64,000 bases of DNA from a virus: the UHGV virus genome UHGV-0222911; one strand, 5' to 3'. Under the pieces are notes generated by a model. The model did no database searches. It had not been told where the DNA came from and saw only the letters and a program-made list of their open reading frames with translations. Within the stretch, counting starts at the first letter, position 1. Each line of letters starts with the position of its first letter. The translations under genes were made by a program, and so were the position numbers. Shown here piece after piece: positions 13,655 to 56,728 of the stretch.

Positions 13655-13896
13655 TGACTTATATAATTTACTCCAAAACCGGATGCCCTCAGTGTGAGAC
13701 TGCAAAGAATTTTGCGAAAGCTCGTGGTATTGGCCATGTTGTGAGAATGTTAGGGCAGGATTATGAACTGTCAGACCTGATGGATATTGCACAGATGCCA
13801 GTTCGTCAGATGCCATTCATCATGAAAACTGACGGTCAAAACTTAAAACCTGTTGGAACGCTACAGAATTTTATGGCAGAGGTGAATAATGCTTAA
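13654..13896 (+). CDS. glutaredoxin/NrdH-like redoxin
   Basis: 80 aa with CPQC active-site motif near N-terminus, immediately after nrdB. Confidence 0.6.
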   Translation: MTYIIYSKTGCPQCETAKNFAKARGIGHVVRMLGQDYELSDLMDIAQMPVRQMPFIMKTDGQNLKPVGTLQNFMAEVNNA

Positions 13897-14095
13897 ACGC
13901 CTTTGGGAAGGTTTGGTTGTTGATGCACCAGCCATTGTGATTGGTATGCTTGTTGTTAACCTATTTACTGATTTTGAACAAGGTTCATTGTTTGGAGCCA
14001 TGCTATTATGGGTTATCTTTGAAATATTAGAGATACAGCTAGGCATCACTGAAAAACTAAGAAAACTCGTTTCAAAGTTTTCTAAAAAGATTTAA
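13889..14095 (+). CDS. hypothetical small membrane protein
   Basis: 68 aa, hydrophobic stretch AIVIGMLVVNLF and LLWVIFEILEI. Confidence 0.25.
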   Translation: MLKRLWEGLVVDAPAIVIGMLVVNLFTDFEQGSLFGAMLLWVIFEILEIQLGITEKLRKLVSKFSKKI

Positions 14096-16853: not shown

Positions 16854-17017
16854 CCTTATGTAAAACTTGACATGGTGGTGTGAGTCTTGATAGGCTTACA
16901 TCACCTTTTTATTTGGATGTTAGATATGGCAGAGAGTATTATTGGGTTGTTCATAGGTTCTGTCTTACTAGGGTTCTTTTTAGGACTTTCTTATTGTGAA
17001 TTGAAAGGTAAGTTAAA

Positions 17018-17218
17018 ATGTTTAAGATATCAAAAGCGTTGATATACATACTCCATATTCTAGTCTTCTTCTTTGGGGTTAGTGTTATGGTATGGGGTTT
17101 TTCAGACCCACAATGGAGTTTCTCATATCATGGTCAGATGGATTTATGGTCATGCTTCAAACCATTTTTAGGGTTAGTCATAGCATTCAGTGCATTACCA
17201 ACTAAGGTGAAATTATGA
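17018..17218 (+). CDS. hypothetical small membrane protein
   Basis: 66 aa with two hydrophobic segments. Confidence 0.25.
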   Translation: MFKISKALIYILHILVFFFGVSVMVWGFSDPQWSFSYHGQMDLWSCFKPFLGLVIAFSALPTKVKL

Positions 17219-22472: not shown

Positions 22473-22808
22473 ATGAAAATCAAAGAGATGAACATCAACA
22501 TCGTCTTAGAAGAACGTTGGGAGAACATTAAGAAGCCTGAAAATGGTCATAAGTTCCTTAACAAAATTTTAGTAGCAGCTAAAGAAGAACTGACTGGTAA
22601 GATTGCAGCAGCAATCACAATAAAGGTCTGTGTAAAAGGTCTTCCAGACAATCACCAATTTGCACTTGACGAGTTTAAAGAAAGCTTCTACAATCCAAAC
22701 AAACAGATGCTTGAAAGTAACTTTGCAGTGTCTACAAGTATCGTCCATGACAGAAGCTTTATCCTTTACAAGAATATGAGAGGTGAGTCATGCAAGCATA
22801 TTGGATAG
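22473..22808 (+). CDS. hypothetical protein
   Basis: 111 aa ORF. Confidence 0.3.
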   Translation: MKIKEMNINIVLEERWENIKKPENGHKFLNKILVAAKEELTGKIAAAITIKVCVKGLPDNHQFALDEFKESFYNPNKQMLESNFAVSTSIVHDRSFILYKNMRGESCKHIG

Positions 22809-22965
22809 AAATTTTGCTGTCACTTGGTAGTGTAGCAGTATTTGTTTACCTCCTTTGTAAGTACTTTGCAGAGCACAAAAAATGTGACTACTGTAATGGA
22901 GAGGGGTACATAAGGGCAGGATGTTGCCCTATGTGTGGTGGTTCTGGTAAAATGTTTAACAAGTA
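22789..22965 (+). CDS. hypothetical small membrane-anchored zinc-ribbon protein (58 aa)
   Basis: Own translation: MQAYWIEILLSLGSVAVFVYLLCKYFAEHKKCDYCNGEGYIRAGCCPMCGGSGKMFNK; one TM helix plus CxxC...CxxC; below track cutoff. Confidence 0.25.
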
Positions 22966-22994
22966 ATTTAACAGTAAACTAAGAGGAAAGTATT

Positions 22995-25361
22995 ATGCGC
23001 ATGGTAAATGACCACGCAGAAGTGATTAAGAGTTCAACTTCTTTAGAGACGTCTCAAGCACAGATTACAATGACACCTGAGATGTTCAGCCTTTTGAGTT
23101 CTGGTGTATATACCTTTAAAGAAAGGGCAGTGATTCGTGAACTGTCATGTAATGCAGTAGATGCTCAGAAAGAAGCTGGAAAAGAAAACATCCCGTTCCA
23201 TGTGCATTTACCTACTCGATTTGAGCCTTACTTTGAAGTCCGTGACTTTGGAACTGGTTTAACCCATGACAAAGTAATGAGTTTGTATCTGAACTACGGT
23301 GCTTCTACGAAGAATGACTCTAATGACTACATTGGTGCAATGGGTATCGGCTCAAAGTCACCGTTTGCAATTGCTCAGTCATTCACAGTATCTAGCTATG
23401 TTGATGGTGTTGTTAATAAGTACTCTGTTTACCTTGAGAATGGTATCCCTCAAGTAACTAAGCTTACTACTAACCAAACAAATGAACCTAATGGTTTAGC
23501 GGTACGTGTGGCAGTTGCTGACCACCGTATCTCAAAGTTCTTTGAAGAAGCTGGGAATGTGTACTCATACTTCACTGTAAAACCAGAAAGTAATATTGAG
23601 TACGACGATGTATTAGCAGATATGAACGTCATTGCCCGTGAAGAAGGTGTTTATGATGCCATGATTCATAAGCAAAGCTGGCGTTCTAGTGGTAACAGGA
23701 CAGAGTTTAATGTGGTGATGGGTAATATTGCCTATCCAGTGAACATGGAAGCATTACTTGGTGATGATTTCTTCAAAGTCTTGCCAGAGTTTTTCCGTAG
23801 GAGCGTAGACCTTGTAAACATCTACATGCCTATTGGTTCAGTTGCTATAGCAGCTTCTCGTGAAGCATTGCAGATGAATGACACGACAAAAAATGTTATC
23901 ATTGAGGCTACTAAAAAGATAACTGAAGCCATTACAAAGGATGTTATCAAGAAAGTTAATAGCCAACCTACACTCATGGATGCTGCACAGGCTTATGCAG
24001 AGTTACGTTTGAACTCACGAGAGATGTTTAATGCTGTGTGTCCAAAGCTAGAGTGGGGAGGCGTTAAGCTTGATTCTCTGGAAGAAGAATTGTTAAACAT
24101 TCGTCGTGGAATTATCTACGCAGAAGACGGCTCAGTCATTTATGAACGTGACGGTAAAGGCAATATTAAGGTTGATAGGAACGGGAACAATATCCCTAAA
24201 GTAGATTATCTTTATGACCCAGTTGCTTATGTCAAGTTCAACTCTTTAGAGAGTAAGATTCGTGCAACAGCACTTTCCTACACTCAAGAGGCAAGCATGT
24301 TCAATATCTTTGGTGCAATGCGTAAAAGCCAAATTGAACAGTTTTTGTTCGTGATTAATGACCGTCGCAATAAAAACGGTACTGAGAAGACTGTAGGACG
24401 CAATCAAATTTTGCGTGGTGCATGTCGAGACTACGCCAGTGAGTCAAATCTGTTTCACAGATACAATGGTATTGTCTTTGTATTCTCTACAGAGAAAGAG
24501 CTAGATGACTTAATCAATCTGCACAAACTTGATAAAAGCTTGTTAAAGATTGTGAAGATGTCTGATAAGGAACATCACTATCAGCGTAAAGAAGCTGTAA
24601 GAGGTGTTGTAAAACTCTGGAAAGCTGTTCCAGCAGAAGGTGTAGCTTCCTATAAAGAGGTTTCAGAGGACTTTGATACAATTGAAGAACCTCAGCTTTA
24701 CATTAAGGCAGTTGGTGACACAGTTGACGGTGAATGTTTTTGCTCATCTCCAGAAGATGTAGCCAAGTCAGTTGCTAATGTTATAGGGAAGACAGTCTAT
24801 GTTTTCCGAAAAGCAAATTGGAAAAAGATACCAGAAGACTGGATTGAAGTAGACGAGAAACTCTTGAACGACAGCTTAACTGACGTTCACTGGATTAACC
24901 ATAACAGATATATGACACGTATCTATATGAATGGTGTCCTCGACCTTACAAGCAGTTGGATTATTGCCAGAAACTTTACGTTCAATAACAGGAAGATTTC
25001 TCGTGGCTATTGCTATTCACGAGACACAAACAAAACTATCTTCTTAGAAGGCAATGAAGATGCTGTTGAGGCAATGTTTGGTAAAATCCAATACGTTGCT
25101 GCACCGTTTGCATACACTTACACTATTAGTAGATTGCAAACTTTGAAAGAATGCCTTGACAATGATACAAAACTGTACAAGAAAATTAAGAAAGCTGGTG
25201 ACCGCATGGTCATTAAGGTGACAAACTACCTTTCAAAAAGAAAACAAGAAAACTTCTTGCTTTCACACTTAGATTGGAATAAAGTGTCACCCATCGAAGT
25301 GAGTAAGTTCTTAGGCTTTGATGTGAAGTGTGTTCCAGAAGGGACTACAATTTACGATTAA
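22995..25361 (+). CDS. rIIA: rIIA-like protein with GHKL (histidine-kinase-like) ATPase domain
   Basis: 788 aa; N-box IRELSCNAVDA, G1 box VRDFGTGL, G2 box GAMGIGSKSPF; followed by rIIB-like gene. Confidence 0.6.
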   Translation: MRMVNDHAEVIKSSTSLETSQAQITMTPEMFSLLSSGVYTFKERAVIRELSCNAVDAQKEAGKENIPFHVHLPTRFEPYFEVRDFGTGLTHDKVMSLYLNYGASTKNDSNDYIGAMGIGSKSPFAIAQSFTVSSYVDGVVNKYSVYLENGIPQVTKLTTNQTNEPNGLAVRVAVADHRISKFFEEAGNVYSYFTVKPESNIEYDDVLADMNVIAREEGVYDAMIHKQSWRSSGNRTEFNVVMGNIAYPVNMEALLGDDFFKVLPEFFRRSVDLVNIYMPIGSVAIAASREALQMNDTTKNVIIEATKKITEAITKDVIKKVNSQPTLMDAAQAYAELRLNSREMFNAVCPKLEWGGVKLDSLEEELLNIRRGIIYAEDGSVIYERDGKGNIKVDRNGNNIPKVDYLYDPVAYVKFNSLESKIRATALSYTQEASMFNIFGAMRKSQIEQFLFVINDRRNKNGTEKTVGRNQILRGACRDYASESNLFHRYNGIVFVFSTEKELDDLINLHKLDKSLLKIVKMSDKEHHYQRKEAVRGVVKLWKAVPAEGVASYKEVSEDFDTIEEPQLYIKAVGDTVDGECFCSSPEDVAKSVANVIGKTVYVFRKANWKKIPEDWIEVDEKLLNDSLTDVHWINHNRYMTRIYMNGVLDLTSSWIIARNFTFNNRKISRGYCYSRDTNKTIFLEGNEDAVEAMFGKIQYVAAPFAYTYTISRLQTLKECLDNDTKLYKKIKKAGDRMVIKVTNYLSKRKQENFLLSHLDWNKVSPIEVSKFLGFDVKCVPEGTTIYD

Positions 25362-25440: not shown

Positions 25441-26346
25441 ATGACTACTAAAACTAAAGCACAGATTGACGCAGAAATTTACGAACTGGTTAAAGAAGGT
25501 AAGCTGACTAAAACAGCTATTGCACAGAAGTTCAATACTTCAACCCGTTCAGTTGGTCGTGCTGTAGAGCGTCATGAAGCAACCTTAAAAGGTAAGAAGA
25601 AGGCGACTTCTACACCAGCTAAGAAGACCCTAAAACAAGTTGCTAAGTCAGTTAAAAAGAAAGCTGACAAACCAGTTGAAAAGGCCGTTAAAGACGCTGT
25701 ACAGAAAGCTCCAGTAAATAAACTGCATGAAGCTATGCAGAAAGATGACAAGATTGAGTACATGATTACTGGTGACTCTGTAATTATGACTTACGGTTCA
25801 GAATCTGAAATTGTTGAGTCTACTCATCCGAACTATCAAGAGATTGTAGTTCATGTTGTGAAAGGTGAGTTCAAGAAAGCATTTGAACTGATGAACATTC
25901 GTAAGTCTATCGAAAACTTCACTCAGGGTGCTATCACAATCAAAGGTGACAAGCTCTTCTACGGTGCTGTTGAGATGCGTTCTACTCTGGTTGACCGTAT
26001 TCTTCACATGATGAAAACTGGTGATAAAGGTTTTGAACGACTTGTAATGTTCTTCGAAAAACTGATGGAAAACCCATCTAAAGATTCTGTAGAACAACTT
26101 TGGGGATTTGTATCTCACCTTGATGTTGAAATTGATGAAGAAGGTTACATCATTGGTTGGAAGAAAGTCTCTACTCGTGAAGGCAAGCTGGTTGACTCTC
26201 ACACCTACAAAGTGCCTAATGATTTGGGTAACATTGTAGAGATGCCACGTTGGATGGTTGATAACAACCGTAACGTAACTTGCTCTCAAGGTCTTCATGT
26301 TGGCGCTTGGATTATGTTCGTTGCTTCTCAGGTGATACCATCCTGA
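25441..26346 (+). CDS. rIIB: rIIB-like protein, 5' portion (reading frame interrupted near 26302-26310)
   Basis: 301 aa ORF downstream of rIIA-like gene; C-terminal TCSQGLHV then frame is lost; continuation is in overlapping frame. Confidence 0.5.
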   Translation: MTTKTKAQIDAEIYELVKEGKLTKTAIAQKFNTSTRSVGRAVERHEATLKGKKKATSTPAKKTLKQVAKSVKKKADKPVEKAVKDAVQKAPVNKLHEAMQKDDKIEYMITGDSVIMTYGSESEIVESTHPNYQEIVVHVVKGEFKKAFELMNIRKSIENFTQGAITIKGDKLFYGAVEMRSTLVDRILHMMKTGDKGFERLVMFFEKLMENPSKDSVEQLWGFVSHLDVEIDEEGYIIGWKKVSTREGKLVDSHTYKVPNDLGNIVEMPRWMVDNNRNVTCSQGLHVGAWIMFVASQVIPS

Positions 26347-26549
26347 AGGTTCGTGTCCATCCACGAGATGTTGTATCCGTACCAACTGATTACAACGATA
26401 TGAAGATGCGTTCCTCTCGTTATGAAGTTGCAGCAATCGTTGATAATCAACGTAAAGTGCTGAAAGCATGGGATGGTAAGACTGAAGCTTTGCATGTCAT
26501 CGTTGGCACTGCTGGTGAACTTATCTCTCAACGTAAACGTGAAATCTAA
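26310..26549 (+). CDS. rIIB: rIIB-like protein, 3' portion in shifted frame
   Basis: Frame-0 translation DYVRCFSGDTILKVRVHPRDVVSVPTDYNDMKMR... continues the rIIB-like sequence; no ATG at its 5' end. Confidence 0.4.
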   Translation, partial: DYVRCFSGDTILKVRVHPRDVVSVPTDYNDMKMRSSRYEVAAIVDNQRKVLKAWDGKTEALHVIVGTAGELISQRKREI

Positions 26550-26564
26550 TAAGTAATTTCTTAA

Positions 26565-26590
26565 AAGGCTGCTTCGGCGGCCTTTTTTAT
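26565..26590 (+). terminator. rho-independent terminator-like hairpin
   Basis: AAGGCTGC-TTCG-GCGGCC followed by TTTTTTATTT. Confidence 0.45.
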
Positions 26591-26649
26591 TTGTATTTTG
26601 TGCAGAGTGCTGTATAATTGTTGTCACGATAAACTAAACAGGAGAACCA

Positions 26650-27198
26650 ATGAAGAAATTGATTCTAGGCTTGTGCTTAATGTTTACAGCACACTTATCT
26701 TATGCAGTTGACTGCCCAGAGCTATCAATTAGCCAAAAAGTTAACATGTTAAAAGCTTACCAGTATGGTGAGAATAATATGGGGAAAGGCTGGGGTATTA
26801 CTCTAGCAGCTATAGCCTTACAAGAGTCAGAGTTAGGTCTGAAGGTAGAGAATAAAAAGACCCACGACTATGGTATTTTCCAGAATCACTTGAAGACTGT
26901 TGTAAAGCGTAACAAAATTAGTCCTAATGTGGCTAAAAAGAAACTCTTAAAAGATTTTGACTATGCAGCAAAAGAGACACATAAAGAGCTTGAGTTTTGG
27001 ACTAAGGTACATGGTCACCCGAAGTCAAAGAAGACTTTACAAAAAGTTTTAGCATCATATAATGCTGGGTATTCGTACAAAATCCCTAAAGCTAAGAAAT
27101 ACTCTCAAGATGTCTATAACAATATGAAAGTTATCGCTCAATGTGAATTTGCAACAAACATTTCTAAGGTAAATCATGAAAAAATTAAGAAAGTCTGA
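26650..27198 (+). CDS. secreted lytic transglycosylase-like (SLT-domain) protein
   Basis: N-terminal signal peptide MKKLILGLCLMFTAHLSYA; SLT-like AIALQESELG ... DYGIFQN. Confidence 0.4.
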   Translation: MKKLILGLCLMFTAHLSYAVDCPELSISQKVNMLKAYQYGENNMGKGWGITLAAIALQESELGLKVENKKTHDYGIFQNHLKTVVKRNKISPNVAKKKLLKDFDYAAKETHKELEFWTKVHGHPKSKKTLQKVLASYNAGYSYKIPKAKKYSQDVYNNMKVIAQCEFATNISKVNHEKIKKV

Positions 27199-27871
27199 TG
27201 AAGTCCTGTGCCATGCTTATGACTTGCATCCTCATGAGTTAGGTCTTGATTCCTGTGTATGGACTCCAGAACAGTGCAGGGATTTTGAAGACACTGCAAG
27301 AGAAGTTGTATGTTCACTTGAAGAGTTCCACACATCAGAACCAATTGTGAACGTTGTGGACAAAGAGACTGGACAAACTATAGGTGTAAGGCGCGATAGT
27401 TTAGTCATAGTCAATAAAGACCTTGTAGAAAAAGGTAACCTCATCTTAGCAGATATTGATGGTGTTCTTACAAATTTTAATCACGAAGATTGCTCAACGG
27501 AATTGACTGATGGGTCATTCTCACAGTACACTAATCTTCTTGATTCTGTAAGAGCAAAGCCAACATATGTTTTCAACATTATTGATGCAATTGCAAATCA
27601 TGCAGCAGTTGGACTCTTGACAGCAAGAGGTGAATCTCAGAGAATACCTACTGAGATGTTTTTAAGGCACAATATAGAGCATGATTACTTGCTTTTTATG
27701 CGTGGTTTTGGAACTAACTCTATAAGTGCAGAAAGTTTAAAAGTGAGGATGATTCAGTCTTGCATTCTTCCTTATTTTAATATAGTATGCTTTATAGAAG
27801 ATACAGAGAATAATGTTCAGAAGGTAAACAGAATCCTTCCACACATTAAAACTATGTTAGTTAAACATTGA
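27176..27871 (+). CDS. HAD-superfamily phosphatase-like protein
   Basis: HAD motif I ILADIDGVLT; 231 aa. Confidence 0.35.
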   Translation: MKKLRKSDEVLCHAYDLHPHELGLDSCVWTPEQCRDFEDTAREVVCSLEEFHTSEPIVNVVDKETGQTIGVRRDSLVIVNKDLVEKGNLILADIDGVLTNFNHEDCSTELTDGSFSQYTNLLDSVRAKPTYVFNIIDAIANHAAVGLLTARGESQRIPTEMFLRHNIEHDYLLFMRGFGTNSISAESLKVRMIQSCILPYFNIVCFIEDTENNVQKVNRILPHIKTMLVKH

Positions 27872-28347
27872 GAGAAGAACTTATGAACAATATCATTACG
27901 GTAGCACTGGACGATACGGCAAACAAATCTGAAGTAGTTCGTAAAATGATTCAAGGTAACTTTGAAGGTAAAATTTTCCGTGCTGTTAATGTAAAAGCTG
28001 ATGGCAGTATTCGTGAATATCGTGCATTGTTGAATGTTAAGAAGCACGTAAAAGGTGCTGGTTCAACGACTGCACACAAAGAAAACCTGATGACTATCTA
28101 TGATATGGGTAAGGCTTCAGAGTTAGGTGCTGAAGGTATCGTTAAAGAAGGTGCTCCATATCGCTCTTTCAATCTGGAAACTACCCTTATGCTTTCCTTT
28201 ACGAGTGGTTCTAAAACAATCACTTATCTCTTTACTGATGCTGCAACGGTATCTGCTATTAAGGATAGCACTGTCAAAGCTGGCGTAGTTGCTGCTGCAA
28301 AAGCTTCTTCGATGGCTGCAAATATCCTTGCTAAAGTCCTCGGTTAA
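27868..28347 (+). CDS. hypothetical protein
   Basis: 159 aa ORF; hairpin terminator 28360-28381 follows. Confidence 0.3.
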   Translation: MREELMNNIITVALDDTANKSEVVRKMIQGNFEGKIFRAVNVKADGSIREYRALLNVKKHVKGAGSTTAHKENLMTIYDMGKASELGAEGIVKEGAPYRSFNLETTLMLSFTSGSKTITYLFTDAATVSAIKDSTVKAGVVAAAKASSMAANILAKVLG

Positions 28348-28359
28348 GGTTAAGATACA

Positions 28360-28381
28360 GGCTCCTTCGGGAGCCTTTTTC
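28360..28381 (+). terminator. rho-independent terminator-like hairpin
   Basis: GGCTCC-TTCG-GGAGCC followed by TTTTT. Confidence 0.45.
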
Positions 28382-28399
28382 ATTTCAGGAGATTGTTAA

Positions 28400-28747
28400 A
28401 TGACATTTAAAGAGTTCTGTCAAGCTACTTTCATAATTGTTTTCTTAGTTGGGGCAGGTGTCTGGGGAGGATACTCTTACAGAGACTACCAAGTTGCTGA
28501 AGCTGAGTTAAGCAATGAGAAACTAATAAGTATTGCTAAAGACGCTTATCAGGAAGGTTTAGCCACACTGAGCACCAATTACAAAAATGATTTGAAAGAT
28601 GTGCTTGCTAAGAATAAGCATACAAAAGAGGTACTAACATATGAAAAAACTAAGCCAGAGTTTTATAATGTTTGTGTTACTGATAATTATGTCAGGGTGT
28701 TCAACGAACAAAGTGAACAGTACATTCAAAAACTCCCAAGTAAGTGA
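28400..28747 (+). CDS. candidate i-spanin (Rz-like): N-terminal TM anchor plus periplasmic helical domain
   Basis: 115 aa; TM FIIVFLVGAGVWGGY then charged helical region; a lipoprotein ORF overlaps its 3' end out of frame. Confidence 0.3.
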   Translation: MTFKEFCQATFIIVFLVGAGVWGGYSYRDYQVAEAELSNEKLISIAKDAYQEGLATLSTNYKNDLKDVLAKNKHTKEVLTYEKTKPEFYNVCVTDNYVRVFNEQSEQYIQKLPSK

Positions 28748-28910
28748 GAGTGATAAGTACACTCAAGAAGATTCAAGATTCACTATCAAAGGTAATACTG
28801 GTAGTGATGTGGCAGCAGCCCTTGAGTTCTATCGTGATGGATTTTACCAGTGCACAATCAAAGCTAATAGCCTTATTGATATGATTTTATTAGGAAATAA
28901 ACAGCAATGA
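28641..28910 (+). CDS. candidate o-spanin (Rz1-like) lipoprotein, overlapping previous gene
   Basis: Signal peptide with lipobox-like IIMSGC; start embedded in 28400..28747 in a different frame. Confidence 0.3.
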   Translation: MKKLSQSFIMFVLLIIMSGCSTNKVNSTFKNSQVSESDKYTQEDSRFTIKGNTGSDVAAALEFYRDGFYQCTIKANSLIDMILLGNKQQ

Positions 28911-40363: not shown

Positions 40364-40867
40364 CTATAATTGTAGGTTGCATTCTTTACTTACCTCTTCA
40401 AGTTTAACCTCAGAGTCCTTGAGTCGCTTCTTATGAACTCTGAATCTTAGTAGTGAGATGATGATACCAACTAAAGGAACAACATACAAGTACCAAACAT
40501 CATACACCTTTGCAGTAACTTGTGTAATGGTTAAATCTTGAGCTATGGAACTAATTGCTGATACTGCCAGCAACGTTGCTAAGAAAAATGCCAGTACCAT
40601 CACAGTACTTAAACAACCTCTGGCATGGTGTTCATGCTTAATGCACTTATTTTTCTCGTCAACAACCCTGTTGTAGTCATTTGTAAAGTCTCTGTAGAAA
40701 GCTTTCAAGTATTCTTGACTGTAACCTTCAAAGCAACCTGTACCATACCAATAATCACCACCAAAATGTGCTATGATACCAGTATCTCCATTTGGTTTGG
40801 TTACTCTCAAAGAGGTGTGATGACGGGTATCTTGATAGTCTATTTTGTATCTTTCTTCGTAAATCAT
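40364..40867 (-). CDS. hypothetical membrane protein (two predicted TM helices)
   Basis: 167 aa; LSTVMVLAFFLATLLAVSAISSIA and VWYLYVVPLVGIIISLL followed by basic tail. Confidence 0.35.
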   Translation of the reverse strand: MIYEERYKIDYQDTRHHTSLRVTKPNGDTGIIAHFGGDYWYGTGCFEGYSQEYLKAFYRDFTNDYNRVVDEKNKCIKHEHHARGCLSTVMVLAFFLATLLAVSAISSIAQDLTITQVTAKVYDVWYLYVVPLVGIIISLLRFRVHKKRLKDSEVKLEEVSKECNLQL

Positions 40868-43214: not shown

Positions 43215-43679
43215 TTACTTTGGGTATACACTGTCAAGATAAATGTCAGCTTCCATTCTACGTCTGTTTTTAAGACCGTTTGAGGTGACCTTCTTACCTT
43301 TGACTGTAACCTTGTTCCACCACTGCATAGCTTCTGCACAACCTACCTTATTACCAGCATTGTGGCGCTTGATAAATGTAGAATCCTGCATAGCTGTGAT
43401 ACCGATGTTGTATGTTTCACTTACAAGTGCATCGAACTCATTCTGAGAAGTTGGAACCTTGATAGCTTTGTTCACTGCTGCAACAAACTTTTCAACATCT
43501 GCGAGAAGATACTGTTCGGCTTGTTCAGCAGTAATTTTCATACCCATCTTAACAGGTTTCCCGTCAATACGGATTGTGCCATACCCAATTGTTGGGATTC
43601 CGGCAGAGTCTTCGTAAGCCTCTAGCTTCAGACCTTCAAAGAACTTAATGGCTTCTAAGCCTTTTCTTGAGAGTTGCAT
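43215..43679 (-). CDS. endolysin, phage lysozyme (GH24 muramidase-like)
   Basis: 154 aa; EGLKLEAYEDSAGIPTIGYG with catalytic Glu-Asp-Thr spacing typical of T4/lambda-type lysozymes (recalled). Confidence 0.65.
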   Translation of the reverse strand: MQLSRKGLEAIKFFEGLKLEAYEDSAGIPTIGYGTIRIDGKPVKMGMKITAEQAEQYLLADVEKFVAAVNKAIKVPTSQNEFDALVSETYNIGITAMQDSTFIKRHNAGNKVGCAEAMQWWNKVTVKGKKVTSNGLKNRRRMEADIYLDSVYPK

Positions 43680-45061
43680 TATGCCTCCCCTGTTGGGTTA
43701 ACTGTAACTGTTGCCGCATTAGATGTTACAGAGCCACCTGCACCAGTTACAACACAAGTGTAGCTTCCTGCATCAGCAGCGGTTGCACCTTCTTTGGTGT
43801 AAGTTGCAGTAGTTGCGTCTGGGATGTTTTCCTCACCCTTCTTCCACTGGTAGCCTGTTGCACCTGTTGCCACAACATTCAGCGTTAAGGTCTCACCTTC
43901 AGTGATTTCTTGATTGGTTGGCTGTTGAGTGATTACAGGAAGAGCATTCACAGTTACTACAGCAGCGTCAGAGACTACATCTCCACCTGCGCCAGTTACC
44001 GTGCATTTGTAAGACCCAGCATCAGCAGGTGTTACACCAGCTTTGGTAAAGGTTGCAGATTTTGCTTCCTCAATACTTACGTTATCTTTGCTCCACTGGT
44101 AGCCTGTTGCTCCAGTTGCAACGATGTTAAGAGTAAGTGTGCCACCCTCATTTACTGTTTTTGCAGTTGGCTGTTGAGTGATTACAGGAAGAGCATTCAC
44201 AGTAACTGTCGCTGCACTAGATGTGACTGAACCACCCGCACCAGTTACTACACAGGTATATGAGCCTGCATCTGTTGGTAGTGCGCCAGACTTGCTATAG
44301 GTAGCTTCTGTAGCTGAAGGGATGTCAGAGCCATCTTTCTTCCATTGGTAACCTGTTGCACCCGTTGCAGTAACCTCCAAGTTGATATTTCCACCCTCAT
44401 TGATGGTCTGACTAGAAGGTTGCTGTGTAATCACGGGTAGCGCATTAACAGTAACTGTTGCCGCATCTGATGTAACACTTGTCCCTGCCTCTCCAGATAC
44501 AACACAAGTGTATGAACCAGCGTCAGAAGGCACTACAGATTGTTTTGTATAAGTTGCAGAAGTGGCACTGGAGATGTCCTCGCCACCCTTCTTCCACTGA
44601 TATCCAGTGGCATTAGTTGCGATAACGCTTAGGGTAAGTGTGCCACCCTCATTAACTGTTTGGTTTGTCGGTTGCTGAGTGATTGCTGGTGGCTTAATAG
44701 CATCCTTCAACTTAGCATTCAACATTGAGAACGGTTTAACTCTTGCCAACCATTCACAATAAACTGTATCAACGTCTTTACCATTGATAATTGCGTATTG
44801 TAAATCCATGAAGAAGTCAGAAGTTCTCATCTGAGCACCGATACTGTAAAGCAAATCATCACTAAAAGGGACTTTGTAGTCTGGTTTGTAGTCAAACTTC
44901 TCAACCTCTGCGATATCAGCTTCAGGCCAATATGAACTATAGGTAAGTGGTAAAATAGCCTCTTGATATGTTCTAAAATCATATCTCTTACCAGCCTTTA
45001 CATTTGCAATGAAGCCCTTTACAAATTCTTTGAAGTCTGGATAAGTCTTTGCTTTAATCAT
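43679..45061 (-). CDS. protein with four tandem Ig-like domains and a unique N-terminal domain
   Basis: 460 aa; four repeats of about 90 aa each (ITQQPTNQTVNEGGTLTL...ATGYQWKK...DAGSYTCVVTGAGGSVTS...ATVTVNALPV); N-terminal domain paralogous to neighbouring 45058..45429 product. Confidence 0.5.
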   Translation of the reverse strand: MIKAKTYPDFKEFVKGFIANVKAGKRYDFRTYQEAILPLTYSSYWPEADIAEVEKFDYKPDYKVPFSDDLLYSIGAQMRTSDFFMDLQYAIINGKDVDTVYCEWLARVKPFSMLNAKLKDAIKPPAITQQPTNQTVNEGGTLTLSVIATNATGYQWKKGGEDISSATSATYTKQSVVPSDAGSYTCVVSGEAGTSVTSDAATVTVNALPVITQQPSSQTINEGGNINLEVTATGATGYQWKKDGSDIPSATEATYSKSGALPTDAGSYTCVVTGAGGSVTSSAATVTVNALPVITQQPTAKTVNEGGTLTLNIVATGATGYQWSKDNVSIEEAKSATFTKAGVTPADAGSYKCTVTGAGGDVVSDAAVVTVNALPVITQQPTNQEITEGETLTLNVVATGATGYQWKKGEENIPDATTATYTKEGATAADAGSYTCVVTGAGGSVTSNAATVTVNPTGEA

Positions 45062-55111: not shown

Positions 55112-56728
55112 TTGCGGAGGCGCTTAATGGACTTAAATGCTGTTAAGCAGAAGCGAGTGGAAGATGTTAGGAAAGTCCTAGCTGGAGAGTTGGGGCTTTC
55201 TGATGAAGTAAAAGAAATTATCAAATCATTCGGTAAAGACCCCTCTAAATTCCTTCCAACTCAAATTCTGACTTTATTAAGATACACACCAGACCAAGTT
55301 AGACTTATCTTCAAATTGATGACTGATAAGAACTATGTAGCCCCTCAGCCGGGTTCTCAAGAGGTCTTTTTAAATACTAATGCTGACTTGGTTCTCTATG
55401 GTGGTGCTGCGGGTGCTGGTAAGACTGCTGCATTGTTAATGGACTCTTTAAGGTTTATTGATGACCCTAATTATAATGCTGTATATTTCCGTCGAAATAC
55501 AACACAGCTACAAGGTGGTTTGTGGCCTGCTGCAAAGAAACTATTTGGTAAGTTTGGTGGGGTTCCTCACGAGCAGAAGATGACTATCACATTCCCTTCT
55601 GGGGCAACTATCAAGTTTACCTATCTAGAGCTTGAAAAGCACGCTGAAGGTCATCAGGGTATTGAGTATTCAGCTATTTACTTTGACGAAGGTACTCACT
55701 TCTCTGCTTCACAGATTTCATACCTACAGACCCGTCTGCGTTCTGGTGCTGAAGGTGACTCATACATGAAGATTTCTATGAACCCAGATAGAGACCACTT
55801 CATTTATGATTGGGTAGAACCCTTCTTAGATGAAGAAGGTTACCCAGACCCTGAGAAGTGCGGTCGTATTCGTTGGTATGTTATGAATGATGGTGTGATG
55901 GTTTCTGATTGGGAAAGAGACAAGATTCTTGAAATGTTCCCTCTTGAGATTCCTCAGACATACACCTTCATCTCTGGTACGATTGATGATAACCCAATTC
56001 TTGACTTCTTAGAACCTAAATATCGTGGTAAGTTGGAAAACAACACACCTGTAAACGTTGCAAGACTTCGTTTCGGTAACTGGAAGGCTCGCGCAGAAGG
56101 TTCAAACTATTGGCAAAGACAATGGTGTGAGATTGTTGATTCACTCCCAGAAGATGTGTTTGATGTCAGAGCATGGGACTTAGCAGCAACTTTACCATCT
56201 GAGATTAACCCTAATCCAGACTGGACAGCGGGTGTTAAGATGGGTAAATCTAAAAAAGACGGTTGCTATTATATCATTGATGTAGTAAGATTTAGAGATA
56301 GACCCTCTGGAGTCGAAACACAAATTAATTTGACTGCTGAAAGTGACGGTAAGCGAACTGGTATTTTTATCCCTCAAGACCCAGGCGCTGCTGGTAAATC
56401 CTATGCAACATCCCTCATCAGGAAACTTGCCGAGAAAGGTTATCGCGCAAGAGCTAAACCAACAAATAAAGATAAAGTTACCCGCTTTGCGGGATTTTCT
56501 GCTGCTTCTGAAGCTGGACTTGTAAAAGTCTTGAGAGGTAGTTGGAACGAAGCTTACTTTCAAGAACTTGAAGGTTTTTGTGGTGATGGTAAAACTAAAG
56601 ATGACCAAGTGGATGCTACCAGTGATGCTTTCAACAGTCTTAACGAAGTTAAATTATTCAAGCCACCATCAATGGGTGCTCACACAGACTTAGTGAGAGG
56701 AAACCCATATGAGGGGCTTAGACGTTGA
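55112..56728 (+). CDS. terL: terminase large subunit
   Basis: 538 aa; Walker A LYGGAAGAGKT, Walker B-like IYFDEGTH; C-terminal nuclease-like region; followed by portal gene. Confidence 0.8.
   Translation: MRRRLMDLNAVKQKRVEDVRKVLAGELGLSDEVKEIIKSFGKDPSKFLPTQILTLLRYTPDQVRLIFKLMTDKNYVAPQPGSQEVFLNTNADLVLYGGAAGAGKTAALLMDSLRFIDDPNYNAVYFRRNTTQLQGGLWPAAKKLFGKFGGVPHEQKMTITFPSGATIKFTYLELEKHAEGHQGIEYSAIYFDEGTHFSASQISYLQTRLRSGAEGDSYMKISMNPDRDHFIYDWVEPFLDEEGYPDPEKCGRIRWYVMNDGVMVSDWERDKILEMFPLEIPQTYTFISGTIDDNPILDFLEPKYRGKLENNTPVNVARLRFGNWKARAEGSNYWQRQWCEIVDSLPEDVFDVRAWDLAATLPSEINPNPDWTAGVKMGKSKKDGCYYIIDVVRFRDRPSGVETQINLTAESDGKRTGIFIPQDPGAAGKSYATSLIRKLAEKGYRARAKPTNKDKVTRFAGFSAASEAGLVKVLRGSWNEAYFQELEGFCGDGKTKDDQVDATSDAFNSLNEVKLFKPPSMGAHTDLVRGNPYEGLRR

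What the first reader, a model, noticed from the sequence alone, without database searches (positions are those of the whole stretch)
26650..28910. Lysis functions appear dispersed: secreted SLT-like protein and an overlapping spanin-like gene pair lie 15 kb from the GH24 endolysin
A signal-peptide SLT-like protein (26650..27198) and an embedded gene pair resembling i-spanin/o-spanin (28400..28747 with out-of-frame lipoprotein gene 28641..28910, lipobox-like IIMSGC) sit on the plus strand, whereas the recognisable endolysin (43215..43679) is on the minus strand in another block. No obvious holin is adjacent to either. Either lysis genes are unusually scattered, or the SLT protein serves an entry or other role, or the spanin assignment is wrong.
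Basis: partly seen in the sequence, partly recalled or inferred. Interest (0 to 1): 0.4.

Follow-up and report, generated by a model that had tools for sequence, protein, structure and literature searches.

The report
Scattered lysis genes of Felix-O1-like phage
The window is a Felix O1-type phage whose cell-bursting genes (exported wall-cutting enzyme, membrane-fusing spanin pair, lysozyme) lie at separate places in the genome, an arrangement already documented for this phage group and for T4, so the finding is correct but ordinary.

Summary
The window is a Felixounavirus (97.7% nt identity to phage Pr103Blw).

- **Spanins.** 28400-28747 and 28641-28910 are a two-component spanin pair. They overlap by 107 nt; the second gene is not embedded in the first. 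Both frames are intact in 29 distinct relatives, and synonymous change collapses inside the overlap. Kongari et al. 2018 already catalogue this pair for Felix O1, wV8 and Moogle.
- **SLT-like gene.** 26650-27198 encodes an exported enzyme of the lytic-transglycosylase/goose-lysozyme fold with its catalytic motifs intact. It is a homologue of T4 Vs.1, as the Felix O1 RefSeq note already says, and 2,129 phage records carry one. It lies in a different terminator-bounded unit from the spanins. Its stable neighbours are rIIB and a PseT-like phosphatase, not lysis genes, and it is not among Felix O1 virion proteins.
- **Endolysin and holin.** 43215-43679(-) is a soluble T4-lysozyme-type endolysin. 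The group's putative holin lies beside the tail-fibre gene, outside the window.
- **Prior knowledge.** The lack of a lysis cassette was published for Felix O1 (2010) and Moogle (2015).

The only open point is what the Vs.1-type enzyme does. My best guess is an accessory wall-weakening enzyme. Novelty: already known. Interest: low.

The parts
26563..26586 (+). Rho-independent terminator-like hairpin plus T-run, just after rIIB. It ends the rIIA-rIIB unit.
   Evidence: 10-bp stem, 5 GC pairs, TTTTTTATTT tail; sequence.
26591..26618 (+). Sigma-70-like promoter candidate for the SLT unit: TTGtat, 16 nt, perfect TATAAT at 26613-26618. An AGGAG Shine-Dalgarno sequence lies at 26640-26644.
   Evidence: Read directly from the sequence. 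The scan did not list it because the -35 matches only 3 of 6. This is an inference, not a mapped start site.
26650..27198 (+). Vs.1-family exported lytic-transglycosylase/goose-lysozyme-fold protein, 182 aa. Predicted signal peptide is aa 1-19; catalytic E59 is at 26824-26826; C22 and C164 form a conserved cysteine pair.
27176..27871 (+). PseT-like HAD phosphatase, annotated in relatives as 'polynucleotide kinase'. It overlaps the SLT gene by 23 nt.
   Evidence: phrog_3970 E=1.9e-134. ADIDGVL motif present, no P-loop, no Pfam or PDB hit. The L004 homologue has a faint HAD_PNKP hit.
27868..28347 (+). Conserved 159-aa protein of unknown function with weak WYL_2/Sm-like similarity. It is the last gene of the SLT unit.
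   Evidence: phrog_2267 E=3.8e-50; Pfam WYL_2 E=0.051; syntenic in L004, L038 and L039.
28359..28376 (+). Terminator-like hairpin AGGCTCCTTCGGGAGCCT plus T-run, 24 nt before the i-spanin start. It separates the SLT unit from the spanin unit.
28400..28747 (+). i-spanin, 115 aa: N-terminal membrane span at about aa 6-24, a largely helical periplasmic domain, and conserved Cys92.
   Evidence: phrog_1152 'Rz-like spanin' E=1.8e-41. Kongari 2018 supplement lists the Felix01 i-spanin. Also.
28641..28910 (+). o-spanin, 89 aa, a lipoprotein. Lipobox is IMSG|C20, with the Cys codon at 28698-28700; Ser at +2 predicts outer-membrane sorting. It is in the +1 frame and shares 107 nt with the i-spanin gene.
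   Evidence: Weak N-terminal matches to lipoprotein models.
43215..43679 (-). Soluble T4-lysozyme-type (GH24) endolysin, 154 aa, with the E15-x8-D24-x5-T30 motif and no N-terminal membrane segment.
   Evidence: Pfam PF00959 E=6.6e-41; phrog_7 endolysin; sequence.

Best explanation
This is the normal, T4-style dispersed lysis system of a Felix O1-like myophage.

1. Spanins. The overlapped genes at 28400-28747 and 28641-28910 encode an inner-membrane spanin and an outer-membrane lipoprotein spanin. By inference from the family, these link across the periplasm and fuse the two membranes once the wall is gone.
2. Endolysin and holin. The wall is destroyed by the soluble GH24 endolysin (43215-43679, minus strand). 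That enzyme needs a holin. The group's only curated candidate (Felix O1 gp79 / Moogle gp54 type) lies next to the tail-fibre gene, outside the window.
3. SLT-like protein. It is not part of the spanin operon and is not the endolysin. It is a homologue of T4 Vs.1: a Sec-exported periplasmic enzyme of the lytic-transglycosylase/goose-lysozyme fold. It sits behind a sigma-70-like promoter candidate with a PseT-like phosphatase, downstream of rIIA-rIIB.

Most likely role of the SLT-like protein (inferred, about 40% sure): an accessory muralytic enzyme that nicks or thins the sacculus from the periplasm before holin triggering. It would be insufficient for lysis by itself, comparable to the exported second lysin Tgl of staphylococcal kayviruses.

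Shown here: gene identities, export signals, dual-frame selection, transcription-unit boundaries as sequence motifs, and synteny. Inferred: enzymatic activity, timing and physiological role.
For: Identity of the phage:
- 258 phage records match, mostly Felixounavirus, with the best at 97.7%.

Spanins:
- PHROG Rz-like spanin, E=1.8e-41.
- Felix01, wV8 and Moogle are listed as overlapped spanins with the same lengths and the same 107-nt overlap in the Kongari 2018 supplement.
- Both ORFs are intact in 29 distinct sequences down to about 78% nt identity, with the lipobox and periplasmic cysteines conserved.
- Synonymous divergence collapses only inside the overlap.
- Both proteins are homologous to the spanin pair of phiEco32-like phages.
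- No conflicting annotation appears among homologues.

SLT-like protein:
- Invariant E-S, G-x-x-Q and Y-N-x-G motifs.
- 14 of 15 homologues hit Pfam SLT.
- AF2 pLDDT is 84.6. The fold matches g-type lysozyme, GH23 chitinase, EtgA and Slt. The profile hits EtgA at E=7e-4.
- 32% identity, E=2e-16, to RB14 Vs.1, which passes the Pfam SLT threshold.
- Homologues occur in 2,129 phage records.
- The Felix O1 RefSeq note for ORF3 reads 'protein in vs-regB intergenic region'. Nolan 2006 noted the Vs.1-SLT similarity.

Separation from the spanins:
- Terminator-like hairpins lie at 26563-26586 and 28359-28376.
- In distant relatives (SLT 28-44% identical) the gene stays downstream of rIIA-rIIB. No homologue of this spanin pair lies within the fetched flanks.

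Scatter already published.

Holin candidate outside the window.

Felix O1 RT-PCR gives ORF3, 4, 6 and the lysin ORF35 all maximal at 25 min. ORF3 is not among the virion proteins.

Precedent for an early-transcribed, exported second lysin: Kayvirus Tgl.
Against: - No experiment on Vs.1 or its Felix O1 homologue was found, so the accessory-lysin role rests on analogy.
- From memory of the T4 literature, T4 e mutants do not lyse. Vs.1 therefore cannot replace the endolysin, and it may have a non-lytic role.
- A freely exported active transglycosylase made before lysis could be harmful. Periplasmic over-production of E. coli LTs causes transient lysis, so some control of its activity would have to exist, and none is identified.
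- The promoter and terminators are motif matches only. Whichard 2010 notes that read-through of the many Felix O1 terminators is unresolved, so SLT and spanins may still share transcripts.
- The AF2 model of the i-spanin is of low confidence (pLDDT 57.5).
- The o-spanin has no prolines in its mature part, unlike lambda Rz1 (read from the sequence; the lambda comparison is from memory).
Confidence: 0.8

Rival explanations
1. The SLT protein and the spanins form one functional lysis cluster. In this reading the exported transglycosylase is a second, holin-independent endolysin, or a local wall-clearing helper that lets spanin complexes assemble through the peptidoglycan, as specialised transglycosylases do for secretion systems.
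For: - The genes lie 1.2 kb apart on the same strand.
- The best PDB sequence hit is EtgA, the specialised LT of the type III secretion system.
- Felix O1 ORF3 and ORF6 both peak at 25 min.
- In L038, a lipoprotein plus a membrane-span protein again lie in the same block near the phosphatase.
Against: - Two unrelated genes and a strong terminator-like hairpin lie between them.
- The linkage is not conserved. In RB14 (T4-type), vs.1 sits between regB and vs, with no spanin annotated in the 8.5 kb shown. In L004, L056, L064 and L070 no homologue of this spanin pair lies within the fetched flanks.
- Homologous spanins in the phiEco32-like phage KBNP1711 have no annotated SLT-type gene within 3.5 kb.
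- Lambda-type spanins need no such helper (established knowledge).
Confidence: 0.1
2. The SLT protein acts at entry, as a virion-borne wall-piercing enzyme like T7 gp16 or PRD1 P7.
For: - SLT domains are common in virion proteins, and several weaker fold hits are tape-measure or tail lysozyme proteins.
Against: - It is a small single-domain protein with a cleavable export signal conserved across the family. An export signal makes no sense for a protein packaged in the cytoplasm.
- Felix O1 ORF3 is not among the 16-17 virion proteins found by mass spectrometry.
- The gene lies in the rII/early-type block, not the structural block.
Confidence: 0.03
3. The Vs.1-type enzyme is not a lysis factor. 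It belongs to an envelope-control or host-interaction set inherited together with rIIA/rIIB, the PseT-like phosphatase and the macro-domain protein. Possible roles include changing the wall to affect superinfection, stress signalling or defence systems.
For: - The order rIIA-rIIB-SLT recurs in lineages with only 28-44% SLT identity (L004, L038/39, L056, L064/65, L069/70).
- SLT and the HAD phosphatase overlap in both Felixounavirus and L004.
- A macro-domain gene lies next to or near the SLT gene in Klebsiella T4-likes and here.
- PhageMaP links Bas63 rIIA/B to countering a defence system.
Against: - The synteny may simply reflect shared ancestry of Ounavirinae-like phages. In L070, unrelated genes separate rIIB from SLT.
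- There is no rII adjacency in RB14, Kuttervirus or Aeromonas phages.
- There is no functional evidence at all.
Confidence: 0.2
4. The spanin call is wrong: the 89-aa overlapping ORF is a chance ORF, or the pair has an unrelated function.
For: - PHROG labels the 89-aa family (phrog_4180) as of unknown function, and many GenBank records call it hypothetical.
- There are no prolines in the mature part, and no coiled coil was predicted for the Felix01 i-spanin in Kongari's table.
Against: - Dual-frame constraint is present.
- The ORF is intact with a conserved lipobox in all 29 distinct sequences.
- It has a second, weaker PHROG hit to Rz-like spanin phrog_456, E=5.6e-5.
- Specialists curated it as an o-spanin.
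- It is homologous to the phiEco32-group pair.
Confidence: 0.03

Closest known systems
Felix O1 / wV8 / Moogle overlapped two-component spanins (Kongari et al. 2018, PMC6139136)
   Same: Same genes. i-spanin 115 aa, o-spanin 89 aa, 107-nt overlap, and the same upstream sequence tttttcatttcAGGAGattgttaa. The window proteins are about 93-97% identical.
   Different: Nothing of substance; only a few substitutions.
Lambda Rz/Rz1 and T4 PseT.3/PseT.2 spanins
   Same: A type II inner-membrane protein plus an outer-membrane lipoprotein encoded by adjacent genes. As in T4 (from memory), they are not in a lysis cassette and lie near a pseT-type gene.
   Different: No detectable sequence similarity to lambda Rz1. 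The architecture is overlapped, whereas lambda is embedded and T4-likes are separated ('sep'). The mature o-spanin has no proline, whereas lambda Rz1 is proline-rich (from memory).
Spanin pair of phiEco32-like podophages (e.g. KBNP1711 gp035 and the overlapping ORF)
   Same: Homologous i-spanin C-terminus (YEKTKP.FYNVC..D.YV..FNE), o-spanin signal peptide and lipobox, and o-spanin C-terminus. About 80-84% nt identity over 68 nt of the overlap. Also located away from other lysis genes.
   Different: Different phage family and genome context. The remainder of the proteins has diverged.
T4 Vs.1 (conserved T4-like ORF between regB and vs)
   Same: Same length (181 against 182 aa), an N-terminal export signal, SLT motifs, 32% identity at E=2e-16, and location in an early-type non-structural region. 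The function is unknown in both.
   Different: Different neighbours: regB/vs/tk.4 in T4-type phages, rIIB/phosphatase here. The Cys22/Cys164 pair of the Felix O1 group is absent from RB14 Vs.1.
EtgA / IagB / IpgF-type specialised lytic transglycosylases of secretion systems
   Same: Small (about 150-190 aa) exported single-domain GH23 enzymes. EtgA is the best PDB sequence-profile hit (E=7e-4) and also a fold hit.
   Different: The similarity is marginal (17% identity; TM about 0.45-0.53). No partner machine is known here.
Kayvirus Tgl (PMC7150955)
   Same: A large virulent myophage encodes a second, signal-peptide-bearing LT-motif lysin. It can be transcribed by host polymerase, in addition to the late major endolysin.
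   Different: Gram-positive host; no demonstrated sequence relationship to Vs.1; tgl lies only a few genes from lysK.

Membership tests
Two-component spanin: i-spanin | Single N-terminal transmembrane segment (type II, N-in/C-out) | tested here: met
   Hydrophobic segment at residues about 6-24, Kyte-Doolittle 1.75. It is conserved in 29 sequences. Topology itself is inferred.
Two-component spanin: i-spanin | Predominantly alpha-helical periplasmic domain | tested here: inconclusive
   The AF2 model is mostly helical from residue 39 to 111 but has low confidence (pLDDT 57.5). Kongari's table gives 58 of 88 periplasmic residues as helical but no coiled coil for Felix01.
Two-component spanin: i-spanin | Sequence membership in a recognised spanin family | tested here: met
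   phrog_1152 'Rz-like spanin' E=1.8e-41 over the full length. Listed as a Felix01 overlapped i-spanin.
Two-component spanin: o-spanin | Lipoprotein signal peptide with lipobox Cys | tested here: met
   MKKLSQSFIMFVLLIIMSG|C fits the PROSITE-type lipobox rule (applied from memory). [ITL][MI]SGC is conserved in all 29 sequences. No dedicated predictor was available.
Two-component spanin: o-spanin | Outer-membrane sorting (no Asp at +2) | tested here: met
   The mature N-terminus is C-S-T/M-N/S/Y. The sorting rule is established knowledge; localisation was not measured.
Two-component spanin (pair) | o-spanin gene embedded in, overlapping or directly following the i-spanin gene, with both frames under selection | tested here: met
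   107-nt overlap in the +1 frame. pS is 0.06-0.09 inside the overlap against 0.36-0.55 outside. pN/pS is 0.11-0.15 in the single-coded parts.
Two-component spanin (pair) | Required for outer-membrane disruption; complements lambda Rz/Rz1 | not testable with these tools
   No experiment on this family was found in the papers searched.
Family 1 lytic transglycosylase / GH23 (SLT, goose-lysozyme fold) | Catalytic Glu in the E-S motif, plus G-x-x-Q and A/S-Y-N-x-G motifs | tested here: met
   E59 invariant and S60 nearly so; G75 and Q78; S136-Y137-N138-A-G140; Y151.
Family 1 lytic transglycosylase / GH23 (SLT, goose-lysozyme fold) | Profile match above the curated threshold | tested here: inconclusive
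   This sequence scores 18.8 bits against a 21.3 cut-off. However, 14 of 15 homologues match at E<=0.01, the best at 8e-12, and RB14 Vs.1 passes at 25.1 bits.
Family 1 lytic transglycosylase / GH23 (SLT, goose-lysozyme fold) | Lysozyme-like alpha-helical fold | tested here: met
   AF2 pLDDT 84.6. Foldseek probability 1.0 to g-type lysozyme 3gxk, GH23 chitinase 3w6f, EtgA 8urn and Cj0843 Slt, with modest TM of about 0.45-0.53. TM is 0.67-0.76 to phage SLT proteins.
Family 1 lytic transglycosylase / GH23 (SLT, goose-lysozyme fold) | Non-hydrolytic cleavage giving 1,6-anhydroMurNAc (as opposed to lysozyme hydrolysis) | not testable with these tools
   The fold and motifs are shared by g-type lysozymes and LTs, so sequence cannot discriminate between them.
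T4 Vs.1 family | Full-length homology to T4-type Vs.1, with an N-terminal export signal | tested here: met
   32% identity over 174 columns, E=2e-16. Hits are annotated vs.1 in RB14 and 44RR2.8t. The Felix O1 RefSeq note agrees. Signal-like N-termini occur in 37 of 42 members.
Canonical soluble endolysin (GH24, T4 lysozyme type) | Phage_lysozyme domain with the E-x8-D/C-x5-T triad and no signal or SAR segment | tested here: met
   PF00959 E=6.6e-41. E15, D24 and T30 read. No hydrophobic segment in the TM scan.
Holin adjacent to lysis genes (classical lysis cassette) | Small membrane protein gene next to the endolysin or spanin genes | tested here: not met
   No membrane-protein ORF is adjacent. 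The nearest are 22790-22966 (gp131 type) and 40364-40867(-). No PHROG holin hits. The curated putative holin homologue is absent from the window.

The most novel reading that the evidence does not exclude
The Vs.1-type exported transglycosylase is present in at least 2,129 phage records, spanning Felix O1-like, T4-like, Ackermannviridae and jumbo phages, and is never assigned a role. It may be an overlooked, widely conserved component of envelope control in large virulent myophages. It could pre-thin the wall and so set lysis timing or permit lysis of stationary-phase cells. Alternatively it could work with the rII proteins, with which it is repeatedly syntenic.
Probability: 0.2. Interest if true: 0.45.

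Novelty: already known. Interest (0 to 1): 0.12.

Why it matters
It matters little for discovery. The spanin pair, the absence of a lysis cassette and the Vs.1 homology are all in the literature or in database notes. Practically, it corrects common mis-annotations in this phage group: the o-spanin and SLT genes are often called 'hypothetical', the SLT gene is sometimes called 'lysin', and the HAD phosphatase is called 'polynucleotide kinase'. It also points to one real gap. A periplasmic wall-cutting enzyme conserved in thousands of therapeutic-candidate phages still has no tested function, and the holin of Felix O1-like phages is still only a guess.

Tried and rejected
- tblastn of the Moogle putative holin against the window gave no real hit (best E=0.12). 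Its homologues map next to the tail-fibre gene, outside the window.
- PHROG scan of all small membrane ORFs in the window found none labelled holin.
- T4 late-promoter motif TATAAATA had 2 matches, fewer than expected by chance, and none near the loci.
- PhageMaP per-gene fitness for Bas63 could not be obtained. Supplementary files are not held, and the text gives no value for these genes.
- Literature searches for any functional study of vs.1 returned only Nolan 2006 and one genome paper.
- PDB sequence searches for the 'PNK' and the 159-aa protein found nothing useful.
- In Aeromonas phage Aswh_1, the two small ORFs between alc and the SLT gene are not membrane proteins. I therefore dropped the idea of an independent SLT-spanin linkage there.
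- AF2 of the i-spanin gave too low a confidence to use for a fold search.
- NCBIfam gave only sub-threshold noise for the spanins and nothing for the SLT protein.
- I did not run the 1.84-billion-protein representative search or the genome and metagenome scans. The phage collections had already answered the question.
Full report
**What the window is.** The stretch 26400-29300 matches 258 phage records, nearly all Felixounavirus (Felix O1/wV8-like myophages of Escherichia, Salmonella, Shigella and Citrobacter). The best match is 97.7% identical over its full length. The gene order on the plus strand is as follows:
- rIIA, 22995-25361
- rIIB, 25441-26346 (frameshifted, see the end of this report)
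- SLT-like gene, 26650-27198
- 'polynucleotide kinase', 27176-27871
- a conserved 159-aa ORF, 27868-28347
- i-spanin, 28400-28747
- o-spanin, 28641-28910
- small ORFs, then a macro-domain protein, 29920-30705

The GH24 endolysin is at 43215-43679 on the minus strand.

**Checking the observation.**
- The SLT-like protein begins MKKLILGLCLMFTAHLSYA|VD. That is a basic n-region, a 13-residue hydrophobic core and small residues at -3/-1, which is the shape of a cleavable Sec signal rather than a membrane anchor or SAR domain.
- The AF2 model is unstructured over residues 1-19 and confidently folded from about residue 22 (pLDDT 84.6).
- A crude rule finds the same kind of N-terminus in 37 of 42 distinct family members. 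The remaining five look similar by eye.
- The 89-aa ORF begins MKKLSQSFIMFVLLIIMSG|C. The lipobox is conserved as [ITL][MI]SGC in all 29 distinct relatives collected, and Ser follows the Cys.
- The 115-aa ORF has one N-terminal hydrophobic segment.
- One correction is needed. The pair is overlapped, with 107 nt shared and the second gene running 163 nt beyond the first, so it is not embedded.

**Is the overlap more than chance?** Yes. Across 29 distinct sequences reaching about 78% nucleotide identity, both ORFs have no stop or indel. The single-coded parts show ordinary purifying selection: pN/pS is 0.15 for the i-spanin-only part and 0.11 for the o-spanin-only part, with pS of 0.36 and 0.55. 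Inside the overlap, nucleotide divergence halves to 0.055, and pS read in either frame drops to 0.06-0.09. That is the signature of two frames both under selection.

**The spanins are known.**
- The i-spanin hits phrog_1152 'Rz-like spanin' at E=1.8e-41. The o-spanin hits phrog_4180 (unnamed) and, weakly, Rz-like spanin phrog_456.
- The supplementary tables of Kongari et al. 2018 list Felix01, wV8 and Moogle as 'ovl' two-component spanins. The lengths (115 and 89 aa), the 107-nt overlap and the upstream sequence are exactly as seen here.
- Curated records (Moogle, Mordin, JLBYU32, fjerdesal and others) name them i-spanin and o-spanin.
- The 68 nt at the start of the overlap also match the spanin genes of phiEco32-like podophages at about 80-84%. 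Reading KBNP1711 shows homology of both proteins, including the o-spanin C-terminus. There too the pair lies among early-type genes, not in a cassette.
- Homologue searches turned up no conflicting annotation.
- The AF2 model of the i-spanin is mostly helical in its periplasmic part, but its confidence is too low to count for much.

**The SLT-like protein is a T4 Vs.1 homologue.**
- Pfam SLT is just under threshold for this sequence. However, 14 of 15 aligned homologues hit SLT.
- The catalytic E-S, G-x-x-Q and Y-N-x-G motifs are invariant or nearly so.
- The model matches g-type lysozyme, GH23 chitinase, EtgA and Slt folds at Foldseek probability 1.0, although with modest TM-scores of about 0.45-0.53. 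It matches phage 'SLT domain' proteins at TM 0.67-0.76. The best PDB sequence-profile hit is EtgA (E=7e-4).
- tblastn finds homologues in 2,129 phage records. These include Tequatrovirus and other T4-likes, where the gene is annotated vs.1 (RB14, 44RR2.8t), as well as Ackermannviridae and Aeromonas and Vibrio large phages.
- RB14 Vs.1 is 181 aa, has its own signal-like N-terminus, is 32% identical at E=2e-16, and passes the Pfam SLT threshold.
- This is not new. Nolan et al. [quoted passage not shown] I found no functional study.

**Is the SLT gene part of a lysis cluster with the spanins?** Probably not.
- Strong terminator-like hairpins lie right after rIIB (26563-26586), right before the i-spanin ribosome-binding site (28359-28376) and after the macro gene (30735-30776). 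The SLT, phosphatase and 159-aa genes therefore form a unit of their own.
- That unit is preceded by a perfect TATAAT (26613-26618) with a TTG-type -35. This is my reading of the sequence, not a mapped promoter.
- Among 72 viral contigs encoding relatives, Felixounavirus and Mooglevirus keep the whole order. More distant lineages (SLT 28-44% identical: L004, L038/39, L056, L064/65, L069/70) keep rIIA-rIIB upstream of the SLT gene. L004, L038 and L039 also keep the phosphatase and the 159-aa homologue. None has a homologue of this spanin pair within the fetched flanks.
- L038 does have an unrelated lipoprotein-plus-membrane-protein pair next to the phosphatase.
- In T4-type phages, vs.1 lies between regB and vs, near tk.4 (a macro domain), rI and e. 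In a Kuttervirus it lies beside the gp46/47 homologues. In an Aeromonas phage it lies between alc and pseT.
- The gene therefore travels with early-type accessory genes, not with lysis genes.

**Entry role.** This is unlikely. The protein has an export signal, and Felix O1 ORF3 is not among the virion proteins identified by mass spectrometry.

**Endolysin and holin.**
- The endolysin has the E15-x8-D24-x5-T30 arrangement and no hydrophobic N-terminus, so it needs a holin.
- Whichard et al. [quoted passage not shown] They listed gp79, gp116, gp118, gp119 and gp131 as candidates.
- Four of these are in the window: 13889-14095, 16887-17042, 17018-17218 and 22790-22966. None carries a holin label in PHROGs.
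- Center for Phage Technology annotators chose the gp79 type. That is Moogle gp54, a 124-aa protein with one N-terminal membrane span, just downstream of the tail-fibre gene. It is conserved in 261 records and sits at 55316-55684 in wV8, which falls outside this window.
[quoted passage not shown] The same is said of T4 and T4-like Klebsiella phages.
- Felix O1 end-point RT-PCR puts ORF3, ORF4, ORF6 and the lysin ORF35 together at 25 min. The dispersed genes therefore appear to be co-timed, although that data set is coarse.

**How it most likely works.** The steps are holin (unidentified, probably gp79 type), then the soluble GH24 endolysin, then the overlapped spanin pair. This is the standard three-step pathway, with the genes dispersed as in T4.

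For the Vs.1-type enzyme, my best guess (about 40%) is an accessory periplasmic muralytic activity. It would act before or alongside the endolysin and would not be sufficient for lysis on its own.
- The nearest tested precedent is Kayvirus Tgl, an exported LT-motif lysin that host polymerase can transcribe and that acts with the major endolysin.
- Periplasmic over-production of E. coli transglycosylases weakens the wall and causes partial lysis. This shows both that such an enzyme could help and that its activity would need limiting.
- From memory of the T4 literature, e mutants fail to lyse, so Vs.1 cannot replace the endolysin.
- A non-lytic role tied to the rII/phosphatase/macro gene set remains possible (about 20%).

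**Verdict.** The only open question is the function of the Vs.1 family, which the present data cannot settle.

**Things seen in passing.**
- rIIB in this window carries a 1-nt deletion in a GGG run at about 26308, which truncates it to 301 aa.
- The 'polynucleotide kinase' has a HAD DxDGxL motif but no P-loop and no Pfam or PDB hit.
- One database protein (P0059) is a chimeric assembly of the i-spanin and the phosphatase.
- Some Vs.1 homologues (L038, L039) have an LSAC lipobox and may be lipoproteins.

Noticed in passing
window 25441-26549 (about 26308): rIIB is frameshifted. A 1-nt deletion in a GGG run (GCTTGGGAT becomes GCTTGGAT) relative to JLBYU32 and Felix O1 splits the 369-aa gene into a 301-aa ORF plus an out-of-frame remnant at 26280-26549. 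It is either a sequencing error in a homopolymer or a genuine rIIB mutant.
   Followed up: partly
window 27176-27871: The gene that relatives annotate as 'polynucleotide kinase' has a HAD-type ADIDGVL motif but no P-loop, no Pfam hit and no PDB sequence hit. It is probably a PseT-like 3'-phosphatase only, with an uncharacterised 85-aa N-terminal part. It overlaps the SLT gene by 23 nt, and that overlap is conserved in the distant relative L004.
   Followed up: partly
window 13889-14095: A 68-aa protein (Felix O1 gp116 homologue) with two hydrophobic segments and a strongly basic C-tail sits between the glutaredoxin and nrdD genes. It has the shape of a class II holin or pinholin. It is one of Whichard's holin candidates but has never been tested.
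   Followed up: partly
window 28640-28707; L083 3448-3762: The start of the spanin overlap is about 80-84% identical at the nucleotide level to the spanin genes of phiEco32-like podophages. This suggests either exchange of the spanin module between unrelated phage families or extreme dual-coding constraint.
   Followed up: partly
L004, L038, L039, L056, L064, L065, L069, L070 (SLT at about 6001 in each): The order rIIA-rIIB-(0-2 kb)-Vs.1-like SLT recurs in uncultured phage contigs with only 28-44% SLT identity. L070 has no megablast match in the phage collection.
   Followed up: partly
L038 6001-6498, L039 5992-6498: Vs.1 homologues of phi63_307-like phages carry an LSAC lipobox instead of an AxA site. 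In that lineage the enzyme may be a membrane-anchored lipoprotein.
   Followed up: no
L038 9276-9901: A lipoprotein-like ORF (MKKLITTILAC...) is followed by an ORF with an N-terminal membrane span, directly after the phosphatase gene. This may be a non-homologous spanin pair in reversed order.
   Followed up: no
window 43679-45061 (-): A 460-aa protein with four tandem Ig-like repeats of about 90 aa lies immediately upstream of the endolysin gene, with a start/stop overlap. Relatives annotate it as a 'tail protein'.
   Followed up: no
protein P0059: A database protein fuses the i-spanin N-terminus to the phosphatase N-terminus. It is a chimeric short-read assembly and was excluded from the alignment.
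   Followed up: yes
window 29920-30705: This macro-domain protein is the homologue of T4 tk.4, as the Felix O1 ORF13 note says. In Klebsiella T4-like phages it lies directly next to the Vs.1-like gene. Vs.1, tk.4 and PseT-type genes therefore recur together in otherwise unrelated large phages.
   Followed up: partly
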